Assembly (NCBI GenBank): GCA_937929805.1
Contig: CALFUT010000003.1
Location: 730 to 64,729 of the forward strand
DNA length: 64,000 nt
Direction of reading: 5' to 3'
Source of the DNA: an uncultured Pirellulaceae bacterium
GTDB lineage: Bacteria > Planctomycetota > Planctomycetia > Pirellulales > Pirellulaceae
Numbering within the stretch: the stretch's first letter is position 1; every line of letters starts with the position of its first letter. Below the pieces are notes generated by a model. It ran no database searches. It saw only the letters and a program-made list of their open reading frames with translations, and was not told the origin of the DNA. The position numbers and the translations under genes are program-made. Positions 35,797 through 39,936 of the stretch are shown here, one piece after another.

Positions 35797-36510
35797 ATGG
35801 GTCTCTTTAAAATTAAAATCTGTGGAATTCGGTTCGAGTCCGATCTATTTGCGGCGATTGAAGCTGGAGCCGACGCGATCGGTTTGAATTTTTACTCGCC
35901 ATCGGTGCGAAGCGTGTCCACCGAGCAGGCCGCATCTTTGGCCAAGGCACTTGTTGATCGTGAAACACGATGGTCCGGCAAAACCGTTGGCGTTTTTGTA
36001 AATCACTCGGCCGCCGCGATTGCGGAGACCGTACAATCCGCCAATCTGAATGTTATCCAGCTTCACGGTGATGAACGTCCCGAGTTCATTTCTAAGATCC
36101 GCCACCAGCTGAAAAATAGTTCGCTTGCCCCCGACACGCCGATCGTCCGAGCGGTTCGCGTGGCAAAAGACCTAGGTGGGAACGCCGGCACTGCCGAACT
36201 TCAGTCTGAAGTCGCCCACTGGAAAGAGGCGGGGGCGTCGATGGTGTTGCTCGACGCTGCCGTTCCGGGCGCGTTCGGAGGAACCGGAGCTCGGCTTGAT
36301 TGGCATGCTCTGAGGGGTATTTCGCTGGACCTGCCATTTGCTTTAGCGGGCGGCTTAACCGCGGACAACGTGGCGAATGCAATCTCAATCGCGGAGCCTG
36401 ACGCGGTCGATACCGCCAGCGGCGTGGAGAACTCAGCCCAGCGAAAAGATACCGACGCGATGATTCGATTTGTTGAACAAGCTAAAAGCGCGTTCGCGGG
36501 GACGGTTTGA
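35797..36510 (+). CDS. trpF: Phosphoribosylanthranilate isomerase
   Basis: KIKICGI, GADAIGLNF, QLHGDE, GGTG, LAGGLT, VDTASGVE. Confidence 0.95.
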   Translation: MGLFKIKICGIRFESDLFAAIEAGADAIGLNFYSPSVRSVSTEQAASLAKALVDRETRWSGKTVGVFVNHSAAAIAETVQSANLNVIQLHGDERPEFISKIRHQLKNSSLAPDTPIVRAVRVAKDLGGNAGTAELQSEVAHWKEAGASMVLLDAAVPGAFGGTGARLDWHALRGISLDLPFALAGGLTADNVANAISIAEPDAVDTASGVENSAQRKDTDAMIRFVEQAKSAFAGTV

Positions 36511-36774
36511 TCTCGCTCCTTTTCACACGGGCCAAGCTACGGCCTGAGCAGTTCCCGATTTGTACCCGTTTCTGAAAACCGTTCAGGCTAAAAATCGAGC
36601 CATCACTCGATCCGCATTGTGAAACTCGGCGAGCACGGCAAAACAGAGAAACCGGGTGTGTGCGACAGACCGACACATGAGCCCCGATTGCTCGCGGCTC
36701 GCACTTGCTGGCGGACTAACCAGCTCAAAATGCTCGAATTTCTCGGAAAAAACGTTGAAAAATCGTTTGACTTG

Positions 36775-36804
36775 TTGAGCCCGACACCTGTTGCGATGTA
36801 CACT
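36775..36804 (+). promoter_or_regulatory. Candidate promoter TTGAGC-18-TACACT for ahcY
   Basis: Hexamers at 36775-36780 and 36799-36804; implies a ~155-nt leader. Confidence 0.35.
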
Positions 36805-36847
36805 GTCGTGCGGTTGTTAACCATCTCAAGCTGCATAGGTTACTCGA

Positions 36848-36951
36848 CGTAAAAGATCCGGGCGGAAGTCTCCGTACATGGAGTTTGCAGCAATCCTCGA
36901 TCGCGGAACGTCAAATGGACGTTTGAGCCGATCTTATACGCCCTTTTTTTT
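36848..36951 (+). promoter_or_regulatory. Structured 5' leader of ahcY (riboswitch-like candidate)
   Basis: Long-range stem CGTAAAAGATC/GATCTTATACG, two internal hairpins, alternative GGGCG/CGCCC pairing and a U8 tract before the AGGAG SD. Confidence 0.4.
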
Positions 36952-36965
36952 CAGGAGACCTTCCC

Positions 36966-38306
36966 GTGTCGAACGTGGAAACATCAAAGCAGACTTTCAA
37001 AGTCAAAGATATGTCGTTGGCCGAACTAGGCCGCAAAGAGATTGTCCTTGCTGAAAACGAAATGCCCGGTCTGATGGCACTTCGTGAGAAGTACGGAAAA
37101 ACAAAGCCGCTGACTGGTGCTCGCATCGCCGGCTGTCTGCATATGACCGTTCAAACAGCGGTTCTGATCGAGACGCTTGTCGAGCTGGGTGCTGAAGTCA
37201 CTTGGAGTAGCTGCAACATTTTCAGCACTCAAGACCAAGCAGCCGCTGCCATCGCTGAAGCCGGTATCCCCGTCTTCGCGTGGAAGGGCATGAGCGACGA
37301 AGAGTTCAATTGGTGCATCGAGCAAACGCTAACTGCGTTCCCATCGGGCGAGCCGTTGAACATGATCTTGGACGACGGTGGTGACCTAACCGCCATGGTT
37401 CATGACAACTACCCAGAGCTGTTGGCGAACATCAAAGGGATCAGCGAAGAAACCACCGCAGGTGTTCACCGTCTAATCGTGTTGGCAGAAGAAGCCAAGC
37501 TTCAGGTTCCGGCCATCAACATCAACGACAGTGCCACCAAGAGTAAATTCGACAACCTTTACGGTTGCCGCGAATCACTTGCGGACGGCGTTAAGCGTGC
37601 CACAGACGTGATGCTGGCTGGTAAGGTTGCCGTTGTCGCTGGATACGGCGATGTTGGAAAAGGTTGTGCTCACTCGCTTCAGCGTTATGGCTGCCGCGTG
37701 ATCGTCACCGAAATCGATCCAATCAACGCCCTGCAAGCTTCAATGGAAGGCTTTGAAGTCGTCACGATGGACGAAGCTGCCTCGCAAGGGAACTTGTTCG
37801 TTACAACAACAGGTAACCGCGACATCATCCTTGGGCACCACATGGAGCAGATGCCAAACGACGCGATCGTTTGCAACATCGGTCACTTCGACACCGAGAT
37901 CGACATCGCTTGGTTGGAAACTCAGGTCGAAGCAGGCAAAATGACCAAAGACAACATCAAGCCGGCCGACATCGGCGCCGTTGACCGCTACACCTTCGCT
38001 GACGGACACAACGTAATCGTGCTGGCTCAAGGTCGCTTGGTCAATTTGGGCTGTGCCACTGGCCACCCAAGCTTCGTGATGAGCATGTCGTTCACCAACC
38101 AAGTTCTTGCTCAGCTTGAACTTTGGGAGCGTGCTGAGCAGTACGACGTGAGCGTTCACTTGATGCCAAAACGTTTGGACGAAGAAGTGGCTCGCCTACA
38201 CCTAGATCAGCTTGGCGTGAAACTGACCAAGCTGACTCCAGAGCAAGCCGAGTACATGAACGTTCCAGTCGATGGACCCTACAAGCCGGACCACTACCGG
38301 TACTAA
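36966..38306 (+). CDS. ahcY: Adenosylhomocysteinase (SAH hydrolase)
   Basis: [59 protein letters not shown]. Confidence 0.98.
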
Positions 38307-38592
38307 ACTTCGGTTGCGAAACCGATTGCCACTTGTGAGTCAACTTTTGATGGCTCGCAACTGATCACGACGGTGCTGATTGAAAAATCGGCACCGTTTT
38401 TTTGTGCGCAGACCTTCGCACAATTTTTTCGGCAATCAATCGAACCACCTTTCTTGCCATGCGTAACACCGGATTGATTAATCCAATGAGCAACAATCAA
38501 CATAGCAAATGATTTGCTAGCACTCCCCTTTGACAGCGATTGCAGCGTGCGAGATAACGACGTCTCACACGATGAATCACATAGGTTGGGTA

Positions 38593-39936
38593 ATGGCAGA
38601 CATACAAGCATTTCGCGGTTGGCGATACGACCTAGCCAAGGCTGGCTCGTTGTCTGACCTAGTTGCTCCGCCTTACGATGTGATTGACTCACAGCAACAA
38701 GCTCAGCTTTATGACCAAAGCCCGTACAATGTCACTCGGTTGATTCTCAATCGTGGTGACGACCTGCTGGGTGATCAGACAGTCTACGATCGCGCGGCGG
38801 AGCACCTGAAACGATGGCGTCGCGACGATATCTTAGTTGAGGAAAACGTCGGCACCGTTTACGTGTACCACCAGACGTTTGAGCACGAAGGACAGTCGAT
38901 TACGCGGCGTGGGTTCATCGCTCGGACGAAGCTGGAACCATTTGGGTCGGGGACAATCTACCCGCACGAGCAAACTCATTCGGCGGCGAAAGAGGATCGG
39001 TTCAAACTGATGGCGGCCTGCCAAGCTAATCTGAGTCCAATCTTTGGTATTTACCCAGACCCCGATAATGTCGCTCAGGAAGCACTCGAGTCGGCCATTC
39101 AAGACCGTACTCCGCTAACGGCTATCGATGATCATGGCGTGCGTCACGAGATGTGGATGTTGACCGACGCCAATGCGATCGCTGCCGCCGCCAACCTGCT
39201 CGGGTCCGTTCCGATGTACATCGCCGACGGTCATCACCGATACGAAACCTCATGTGCGATTCGTGACCATCGAAGACAGGTCGAAGAAATCGACGGCGAG
39301 CATCCCGCGGACTACACGATGATGATGTGCGTCAGCATGCACGACCCCGGCATGGTTGTGTTGCCGACCCACCGGCTGTTCCGGCAGATCAAACCGTTGA
39401 CCTCAGCCGATCTAATCGCCAGCTTTGGCGACGCTTTCACGTGCGAGGTCGCCGGGCAAGGCATTCACCAAGCCGATTCGGTTTGGGAAGCCATCGTTGT
39501 TGAGGACCGGCAGTCAACGCTAGGCTTCTACTGCCGGCAAGACGACACGTGGGTGCTTGCCCGCCTTTCAGAACAGGGAGCAACGACACTGCAAGAACTC
39601 GCGCCTGACCAAAGTGAGGAATGGCGAGACCTTGGCGTTTCGATTCTTCACAAGCTGGCGATCGAGAAGCTGCTCGGCTACTCCGACCTACCGTCTCCCT
39701 GCTACGTTCACGACATACCAGAAGTCATCGGACGACTCACTCACGGAGATACCGCTGGCCGCGACGCGACCGGACAAGAGGGTGACGGCGGAGCGTTTGA
39801 GCTTGCCTGTTTAGTGATGCCGGCCACCTTAGACCACGTCCAAGCAATCAGCGAGAACGGAGAACGAATGCCCGCCAAGAGCACCTACTTCTACCCGAAG
39901 CTGCTGAGTGGTTTGGTGATTAATCCACTGCAATAG
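38593..39936 (+). CDS. DUF1015 family protein
   Basis: APPYDVI, IYPHEQT, YIADGHHRYET, PTHRL, MPAKSTYFYPKLLSGL. Confidence 0.93.
   Translation: MADIQAFRGWRYDLAKAGSLSDLVAPPYDVIDSQQQAQLYDQSPYNVTRLILNRGDDLLGDQTVYDRAAEHLKRWRRDDILVEENVGTVYVYHQTFEHEGQSITRRGFIARTKLEPFGSGTIYPHEQTHSAAKEDRFKLMAACQANLSPIFGIYPDPDNVAQEALESAIQDRTPLTAIDDHGVRHEMWMLTDANAIAAAANLLGSVPMYIADGHHRYETSCAIRDHRRQVEEIDGEHPADYTMMMCVSMHDPGMVVLPTHRLFRQIKPLTSADLIASFGDAFTCEVAGQGIHQADSVWEAIVVEDRQSTLGFYCRQDDTWVLARLSEQGATTLQELAPDQSEEWRDLGVSILHKLAIEKLLGYSDLPSPCYVHDIPEVIGRLTHGDTAGRDATGQEGDGGAFELACLVMPATLDHVQAISENGERMPAKSTYFYPKLLSGLVINPLQ

What the first reader, a model, noticed from the sequence alone, without database searches (positions are those of the whole stretch)
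36811..36965. Switch-like structured leader on ahcY that fits no riboswitch consensus I can recall
Seen: CGTAAAAGATC (36848-58) pairs with GATCTTATACG (36930-40) at 10/11 positions. It encloses hairpins CTCC-GTACAT-GGAG (36870-83) and AACGTC-AAATG-GACGTT (36907-23). GGGCG (36860-64) can instead pair with CGCCC (36939-43) directly before a U8 tract and the AGGAG SD. The 3' CCGATC can also pair with GATCGCGG at 36899. Known: ahcY is the typical target of SAH riboswitches, and the AUC...CAGCAA...GAU elements echo SAM-I. The SAM-I GGUGC and the SAH-class GAGCG/CGCUC pseudoknot are both absent. Inference: a possible new SAM/SAH-sensing variant.
Basis: partly seen in the sequence, partly recalled or inferred. 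Interest (0 to 1): 0.6.

Follow-up and report, generated by a model that had tools for sequence, protein, structure and literature searches.

The report
Conserved ahcY leader with AGUC hairpin
The untranslated RNA in front of the SAH-hydrolase gene (ahcY) of this Pirellulaceae bacterium is a conserved, folded control region that matches no known riboswitch. Its central hairpin ties it to an apparently undescribed RNA motif found only in front of this gene in related planctomycetes, so it is a good candidate for a new gene switch whose signal is still unknown.

Summary
The element is a real ahcY 5' leader of about 155 nt. A conserved promoter-like -10 lies at 36799-36804, and the GTG start is at 36966.

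The leader is 78-87% identical in three sister species, while four-fold sites of ahcY are only 45-54% identical. It is therefore under selection.

It matches no Rfam 15 family, and the genome has no recognisable SAH, SAM-I, SAM-I/IV or SAM-II riboswitch.

They favour a 5' domain (36830-36891) capped by a hairpin with an AGUC tetraloop (36862-36875), followed by a long hairpin (36898-36934).

AGUC-capped hairpins recur on seven different stems in 30 of 59 ahcY leaders of the genus. One also caps a 71-nt covariation-supported hairpin in about 13 other Pirellulaceae genera. That motif is single-copy, lies 27-85 nt upstream of ahcY, and is not in Rfam.

Only the apical hairpin is shared with the window.

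In the window, the hairpin arms overlap two conserved alternative pairings: with the C-rich/U-tract segment and with the Shine-Dalgarno region.

My best reading is an effector-responsive ON switch. The effector could be SAH or a protein. Nothing about ligand binding has been shown.

The parts
36791..36815 (+). Promoter-like region. It comprises GTTGC, a -10-like TACACT (36799-36804), and a CGGTT start motif (36811-36815). The inferred TSS is near 36811.
   Evidence: The same layout is conserved in G017 and G074. A similar -10 plus CGGT motif recurs upstream of many ahcY leaders of the genus. The sigma-70 consensus scan found nothing, so the TSS is inferred, not shown.
36830..36891 (+). 5' domain. 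It has a closing helix (36830-34 with 36887-91), a small hairpin (36840-43 with 36849-52), and a helix (36857-60 with 36879-82) that carries the apical hairpin.
   Evidence: RNAalifold consensus of four species. 95.6% of cells are paired over the whole two-domain structure, with 4 covarying pairs. This is the MFE, or within 1.4 kcal/mol of it, in all four species.
36862..36875 (+). Apical hairpin: a 5-bp stem with a G-U pair at its base, capped by an AGUC tetraloop (36867-70).
   Evidence: It is invariant in the four species. It is the only part of the window matched by the model of the Pirellulaceae ahcY motif (R2, 10.8 bits, model positions 27-40). AGUC hairpins occur in 30 of 59 ahcY leaders of the genus on 7 different stems.
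36898..36934 (+).
   Evidence: 14 pairs, 3 of them with compensatory changes, 92.9% of cells paired in four species.
36860..36867 (+). G-rich segment. It overlaps the 5' arm of the apical hairpin and can instead pair with 36936-36943.
   Evidence: Five invariant G-C pairs, extended to 7-8 pairs in three of four species. On the transcript up to the U tract, the folds with and without this pairing differ by 3.7, 1.1, 0.2 and -1.1 kcal/mol.
36939..36951 (+). C-rich segment CGCCC followed by a U8 tract.
   Evidence: It is conserved as CGCCC plus a 6-8-nt U-rich run in four species. It was not called as an intrinsic terminator by the scan.
36868..36873 (+). Loop plus 3' arm of the apical hairpin, which acts as an anti-SD complementary to 36954-36959.
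   Evidence: Direct reading. This pairing is part of the MFE in the window. In the three relatives it costs 1.0 to 7.8 kcal/mol. The two variable SD-side positions change only to wobble-compatible bases.
36953..36968 (+). Shine-Dalgarno AGGAG (36953-57) and GTG start codon (36966-68) of ahcY.
   Evidence: The GTG start and a strong SD are conserved across type-A ahcY of the order.
36966..38306 (+). ahcY (S-adenosylhomocysteine hydrolase, 446 aa), the regulated gene.
   Evidence: Pfam AdoHcyase and AdoHcyase_NAD.

Best explanation
The region is the 5' untranslated leader of ahcY and works as a cis-acting RNA switch that turns the gene on.

Its 5' domain (36830-36891) presents a hairpin capped by an AGUC tetraloop. 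I propose that an effector binds this domain. My slight preference is S-adenosylhomocysteine or a closely related methyl-cycle metabolite.

When the domain is folded, the G-rich 5' arm and the pyrimidine-rich loop and 3' arm of the hairpin are locked up. The C-rich/U-tract segment and the Shine-Dalgarno sequence then stay single-stranded, and ahcY is transcribed through and translated.

When the domain is not held, one of two alternative pairings can form:
- 36860-67 with 36936-43, directly before the U tract (terminator-like).
- 36868-73 with the SD at 36954-59.
Either would lower expression.

Shown: transcript context, conservation, the fold of the two domains, the kinship of the apical hairpin, and the existence and near-equal predicted energy of the alternative pairings.

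Inferred: the TSS, any switching, the direction (ON), and the effector.
For: - The leader is under purifying selection: 78-87% identity against 45-54% at ahcY four-fold sites.
- It is single-copy and lies only upstream of ahcY in its genome and in the three sister genomes.
- The two-domain fold is the best-supported structure. It is at or near the MFE in all four species.
- The apical hairpin is homologous to the cap of a 71-nt hairpin motif. That motif gave 22 strong single-copy hits in 150 Pirellulaceae genomes, each on the ahcY strand and 27-85 nt upstream of its start. It gave none in 136 genomes of 27 other families of the order.
- That motif has strong covariation: 12 of 24 pairs with compensatory changes, 0 of 500 shuffles as good. 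It is not in Rfam 15.
- AGUC hairpins are strand-specific and enriched in ahcY leaders: 30 of 59 in the genus on 7 stems, against 1 for GACU, and 1 of 80 in other taxa.
- They are not enriched genome-wide: rank 184 of 256 tetraloops.
- They occur in front of both AhcY types of the genus, which are 57% identical. This fits a signal common to both, such as SAH.
- The genome has no known SAM or SAH riboswitch.
- Both alternative pairings use invariant sequence.
- In the canonical leaders the SD is predicted to be mostly paired with a pyrimidine stretch that begins right after the motif (mean unpaired probability 0.2).
Against: - Only four sequences of this exact leader were available. The key alternative helices are invariant, so no covariation supports switching.
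- The fold is no more stable than shuffles.
- The anti-SD pairing is favoured only in the window, not in the relatives.
- The long-range helix before the U tract encloses about 70 nt and was not called a terminator.
- Only the tetraloop and stem are shared with the canonical motif. The internal loops and lower stems differ. That is unexpected for one conserved ligand pocket and fits protein recognition of a loop at least as well.
- Leader architecture turns over quickly inside the genus. Several close relatives (G018, families F4 and F5) lack the hairpin.
- There are no binding data of any kind.
Confidence: 0.36

Rival explanations
1. The AGUC-capped hairpin is an operator for a trans-acting RNA-binding protein. 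This could be a dedicated regulator or, less likely, AhcY itself. Protein binding, not a metabolite, sets ahcY translation or mRNA fate. The rest of the leader is a lineage-specific platform.
For: - Across very different leaders, what persists is a four-base loop on stems of different sequence. This is the usual signature of protein-recognised hairpins.
- One leader family carries two such hairpins in tandem.
- In the canonical motif the apical helices are invariant in sequence rather than covarying. This fits sequence-specific contacts.
- Short sites of this kind can be lost and regained quickly, as seen in the genus.
Against: - No candidate protein was identified.
- The hairpin sits in front of two AhcY types that are only 57% identical, which argues against autoregulation by AhcY.
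- The canonical form is a 71-nt four-helix rod with conserved bulges, larger than most protein operators need.
- Tetraloop-only conservation on covarying stems is also known for a small-molecule class, the guanidine-II riboswitch. This last point is from my own knowledge.
Confidence: 0.3
2. The leader is a constitutive structured UTR. It is conserved because it sets mRNA stability or basal translation efficiency, and it has no sensing function.
For: - The fold is not unusually stable, and alternative pairings of similar energy are common in any sequence.
- There is no covariation for the switching helices.
- Leaders differ widely among close relatives.
Against: - A strand-specific loop conserved on seven stems and confined to one gene is hard to explain by stability alone.
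- So is a 71-nt motif conserved across about 13 genera.
Confidence: 0.18
3. It is a strongly diverged member of a known SAM- or SAH-sensing class (SAH RF01057, SAM-I, SAM-I/IV, SAM/SAH) that the Rfam models miss.
For: - Its position in front of ahcY is typical of SAH riboswitches.
Against: - There is no hit to any of 4227 families at E<=10 in the leader, nor at E<=5 in 40 related leaders.
- The best SAH score in the whole genome is 15.7 bits, elsewhere.
- The supported fold is two unbranched domains, with no 3'-tail pseudoknot and no four-way junction.
Confidence: 0.03
4. The conserved block is a DNA operator for a transcription factor, or the similarity of the hairpins is chance.
For: The 21-nt invariant block 36855-75 lies about 45-65 bp downstream of the inferred TSS, where a roadblock repressor could act.
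Against: - In the different leaders the arms of the inverted repeat change while the asymmetric centre stays, always on the sense strand (30 AGUC against 1 GACU). This is the opposite of what a dimeric DNA binder conserves.
- Chance is excluded by the background rates.
Confidence: 0.04

Closest known systems
SAH riboswitch (Rfam RF01057)
   Same: It is a cis element in the 5' UTR of ahcY. An ON logic driven by SAH would make biological sense.
   Different: There is no sequence or structure match. The SAH class is a compact pseudoknot, whereas this is a two-domain leader built around a tetraloop-capped hairpin. Ligand binding is untested here.
Pirellulaceae ahcY long-hairpin motif
   Same: It shares the same gene, strand and 5' UTR position, and is single-copy. 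The apical 5-bp stem has a G-U base pair and an AGUC loop. 12 of 14 bases are identical, and the two differences together change one G-C pair into A-U. Beneath it, the topology is similar: a 1-nt 5' bulge, a 3-4-nt 3' loop, then a short helix.
   Different: The lower stems P1-P3 and the conserved internal-loop bases are absent. The model finds nothing globally. The window instead has a three-way 5' domain and a second hairpin.
SAM-Chlorobi motif (RF01724)
   Same: It is a lineage-restricted candidate RNA in 5' UTRs of metK/ahcY operons of one phylum (PMC2864571, read).
   Different: It belongs to a different phylum and has a different structure. There was no match in cmscan.
Guanidine-II (mini-ykkC) riboswitch, as an architectural analogy only
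   Same: Small hairpins whose stems covary while a four-base loop is conserved, sometimes in tandem. This is from my own knowledge. PMC5737381 lists it among riboswitches with simple structures.
   Different: The loop sequence, genes and ligand are unrelated. Most ahcY leaders here carry one hairpin, not two.

Membership tests
SAH riboswitch RF01057 | Covariance-model score at or above the gathering score (37 bits) | tested here: not met
   No hit in the window at gathering score or at E<=10 in 36500-37050. The best hit in the genome is 15.7 bits, on another contig.
SAH riboswitch RF01057 | Pseudoknot between a 5' segment and the 3' tail (GAGCG/CGCUC-type pairing) | tested here: not met
   Neither word occurs in 36811-36965 (reading). 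The supported fold has no such pairing.
SAH riboswitch RF01057 | Located in the 5' UTR of ahcY, metH or metF | tested here: met
   It lies directly upstream of ahcY.
SAH riboswitch RF01057 | Selective binding of SAH | not testable with these tools
   Needs in-line probing or ITC.
SAM-I (RF00162) and SAM-I/IV (RF01725) | Covariance-model match; four-way junction with kink-turn | tested here: not met
   No hit in the leader or in the genome at E<=1.
SAM/SAH (RF01727) and SAM-II (RF00521) | Covariance-model match | tested here: not met
   One search covers all Rfam families at E<=10. One search covers RF00521 genome-wide.
Pirellulaceae ahcY long-hairpin motif (R2) | Apical 5-bp stem with a G-U base pair, capped by an AGUC tetraloop | tested here: met
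   Local match at 36862-36875, 10.8 bits, model positions 27-40.
Pirellulaceae ahcY long-hairpin motif (R2) | Lower stems P1-P3 with conserved bulges; whole-model match | tested here: not met
   No hit with default filters at E<=10. Only the local hairpin is found with filters off.
Pirellulaceae ahcY long-hairpin motif (R2) | Single copy, sense strand, 5' UTR of ahcY | tested here: met
   Window. Canonical motif.
Intrinsic terminator | Compact G+C-rich hairpin immediately followed by a U tract | tested here: not met
   The scan finds none at 36930-36951. Only a 5-8-bp long-range helix enclosing about 70 nt precedes the U8 tract.

The most novel reading that the evidence does not exclude
The AGUC-capped hairpin is the recognition core of a new class of riboswitch that senses a methyl-cycle metabolite (SAH) and is confined to Pirellulaceae. 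It has a 71-nt canonical form (for example in Stieleria marina and Novipirellula aureliae) and minimal or rewired forms such as the one in this window.
Probability: 0.3. Interest if true: 0.85.

Novelty: new variant of a known kind. Interest (0 to 1): 0.64.

Why it matters
No regulator of the methyl cycle is known in Planctomycetota, and this genome lacks every SAM/SAH riboswitch class I searched for.

An RNA element that is specific to ahcY, conserved and supported by covariation gives a concrete, testable handle on how these bacteria keep SAH low. SAH is a potent inhibitor of methyltransferases.

If a metabolite binds, this would be a new riboswitch class with an unusually small conserved core. 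If a protein binds, it would be a new RNA operator system.

Cultured species carry the canonical form, so experiments are feasible.

Tried and rejected
- **Known RNA families.** Rfam at gathering score and at permissive E-values was run on the window, on 40 leaders of the genus and family, and on the whole genome for SAH, SAM-I, SAM-I/IV and SAM-II. Nothing was found.
- **Metagenome pattern scan.** A scan for the invariant core returned three hits that do not resemble the leader; I judge them chance matches.
- **More leaders through protein look-up.** More copies of this exact leader could therefore not be fetched.
- **The search for related loci on genomes.** It returned a broad phylogenetic sample rather than close relatives. 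I used it only as a background set.
- **Model R1 of the window's leader.** It found only the same four genomes among 72 of the genus.
- **Regulon idea.** AGUC hairpins elsewhere in the genome are at background frequency. They sit upstream of unrelated genes (OmpA-like, AIR synthase-related, DUF1559 and others). The metK, metH and metF loci were located, but only the metK leader was read, and it lacks the hairpin.
- **Leader peptide.** The only ATG in the leader (36878-36880) is absent in the three relatives.
- **Loop-partner idea.** The complement of the loop is found near the start codon in one leader family (F3) but not in the others.
- **Covariation count on AGUC hairpins from different families.** This is circular, because the rows were chosen for being hairpins. 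I do not use it as evidence.

Full report
**What is there.** The ORF 36966-38306 (+) is adenosylhomocysteinase (Pfam AdoHcyase, E 3.7e-133). It follows trpF, which ends at 36510, after a 455-nt spacer.

Taken alone they are not remarkable. The minimum free energy of 36800-36975 is no better than that of shuffles (z = +0.48). A 10-of-11 complementary pair of 11-mers appears in 14 of 200 shuffles of the region. No terminator-like site is called at the U8 tract.

**Known families.** No Rfam 15 family matches at gathering score in the window or at E<=10 in 36500-37050. Whole-genome searches for SAH, SAM-I, SAM-I/IV and SAM-II found nothing credible. The genome is 95.6% complete. I therefore also looked for the architecture of that class and did not find it.

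**Conservation.** Among 72 genomes of the same genus, only three (G017, G074, G079) have a recognisably homologous leader. A covariance model of it found only these, once per genome.

In these four genomes the ahcY four-fold degenerate sites are 45-54% identical, yet the 140 nt before the start codon are 78-87% identical. Sequence upstream of a conserved promoter-like block does not align. That block contains a -10-like hexamer at 36799-36804 followed by a CGGTT motif at 36811-15. The conserved RNA begins near 36830. One relative has an insertion of about 95 nt between the promoter block and this point. The leader is therefore under selection and is probably transcribed from about 36811. That TSS is an inference.

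**Fold.** The consensus fold of the four sequences has two domains.
- The first is 36830-36891. It has a closing helix, a small hairpin, and a short helix that carries a 5-bp hairpin with an AGUC tetraloop (36862-36875).
- The second is a long hairpin, 36898-36934.

This structure has 95.6% of cells paired and four pairs with compensatory changes, three of them in the second hairpin. It also competes with the better-supported pairing of the 3' GATC.

With four sequences none of these counts is strong. The two-domain fold is the MFE, or within 1.4 kcal/mol of it, in all four species.

**Alternative pairings.** Two conserved alternatives overlap the apical hairpin.
- The first is 36860-67 with 36936-43, directly before the U tract. 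It has five invariant G-C pairs, extended to 7-8 pairs in three species. On the transcript ending at the U tract, folds with this helix differ from the two-domain fold by 3.7, 1.1, 0.2 and -1.1 kcal/mol.
- The second is 36868-73 (loop plus 3' arm) with the SD region 36954-59. It is part of the MFE in the window but costs 1.0-7.8 kcal/mol in the relatives.

Both are compatible with all four sequences. Neither is supported by covariation, because the positions do not vary.

**The wider family.** I collected ahcY leaders from the rest of the genus. They fall into several unrelated-looking sequence families. The genus also has two AhcY types that are 57% identical.

One feature recurs: a hairpin with an AGUC tetraloop. 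It is present in 30 of 59 leaders on seven different stems. It is always on the sense strand; the complementary loop is seen once. Background rates are low:
- 1 of 80 ahcY leaders from other taxa.
- 1-2 of 20 further Pirellulaceae genera.
- In the window's own genome, AGUC is rank 184 of 256 tetraloops.
- The intergenic AGUC hairpins in that genome precede unrelated genes.
- The metK leader lacks the hairpin. The metH and metF loci were located but their leaders were not read.

**The canonical motif.** In other genera of the family the same loop caps a much larger conserved element, first seen. It is a 71-nt unbranched hairpin of four helical segments with conserved bulges.
- It matches no Rfam family.
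- A model of it (R2) gave 22 strong hits in 150 family genomes, spread over about 13 genera and one per genome.
- Compared with the ahcY positions, each hit lies on the ahcY strand, 27-85 nt upstream of the start.
- Two marginal hits (about 25 bits) lie elsewhere, and I take them as noise.
- It gave no hit in 136 genomes of 27 other families of the order.
- On 24 sequences, 91.8% of cells are paired and 12 of 24 pairs show compensatory changes. No shuffle of 500 reaches the observed values, and slid controls are far lower. That alignment was fitted to the model.
- Carriers include cultured species: Stieleria marina, Novipirellula aureliae and Allorhodopirellula heiligendammensis.
- I found no mention of an ahcY or planctomycete motif in three large motif-discovery papers or through full-text searches.

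**Relation of the window to that motif.** R2 finds nothing in the window with default filters. With filters off it matches only 36862-36875 (10.8 bits). In that stretch 12 of 14 bases are identical, and the two differences together convert the loop-closing G-C pair into A-U.

The layout beneath the hairpin is similar: one bulged base on the 5' side, three or four on the 3' side, then a short helix. The bases differ, and the lower stems are replaced. The same holds for other leaders of the genus.

I therefore treat the window's element as a rewired relative that shares the apical module. It is not a member of the canonical motif.

**Mechanism.** What is shown is a selected, ahcY-specific leader whose conserved core is this hairpin, flanked by conserved sequences able to form mutually exclusive structures next to a U tract and the SD.

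What I infer is an ON switch. An effector holds the 5' domain, which keeps the G-rich arm away from the C-rich/U-tract segment and the pyrimidine arm away from the SD.

In the canonical leaders the SD is predicted to be mostly paired (mean unpaired probability 0.2) with a pyrimidine stretch that begins right after the motif. That is in line with translational control.

**The effector is open.**
- For a metabolite such as SAH: the strict link to ahcY, the presence in front of two divergent AhcY types, the size and conserved bulges of the canonical form, and the lack of any known SAM/SAH riboswitch in the genome.
- For a protein: only a tetraloop on variable stems survives across leader families; one family has two such hairpins; the apical helices are invariant rather than covarying; and the element is lost or replaced in close relatives.

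I put the metabolite reading slightly ahead (0.36 against 0.30).

**Limits.**
- Only four copies of this leader were available.
- The TSS, termination, switching and binding are all untested.

Noticed in passing
L214:1501-1571 (G231), L224:1501-1571 (Stieleria marina) and 20 further loci L213-L234: A 71-nt four-segment hairpin capped by an AGUC loop. It is single-copy, lies 27-85 nt upstream of ahcY in about 13 Pirellulaceae genera, shows strong covariation, and has no Rfam match. It deserves its own follow-up as a riboswitch candidate.
   Followed up: partly
L006:2860-2930 (-) and the other F3 leaders (G041, G061, G072, G076, G078, G080, G082): About 80 nt of ahcY leader are nearly invariant in eight species. 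The stretch holds two AGUC-capped hairpins in tandem. Six bases spanning the first stem's 5' side and loop are complementary to the six bases just before the GTG start.
   Followed up: partly
window 36966; loci L001-L022: The type-A ahcY genes of the order almost all start with GTG, preceded by a strong AGGAG-type SD. This is a conserved non-ATG start that may matter for translational control.
   Followed up: no
genus-wide: The genus holds two AhcY types: about 445 aa, as in the window, and about 504 aa with 57% identity. Each genome seems to have one type. Both types can carry AGUC hairpins in their leaders.
   Followed up: partly
window 36791-36815 and upstream of many ahcY leaders: A promoter-like layout recurs: GTTG, then a TAnnnT hexamer, about 6 nt, then CGGTT. 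It may reflect the housekeeping promoter and start-site context of these planctomycetes.
   Followed up: no
window 36491-36504: A terminator-like hairpin with a T-rich tail overlaps the 3' end of trpF (which ends at 36510), consistent with ahcY having its own promoter.
   Followed up: no
window 38530-39936: A DUF1015 protein gene lies 224 nt downstream of ahcY on the same strand. Whether it is co-transcribed was not examined.
   Followed up: no
L139 (G018:C32): A species whose AhcY N-terminus is 94% identical to the window's has a wholly different leader of about 250 nt without the AGUC hairpin. This shows very fast leader turnover.
   Followed up: partly
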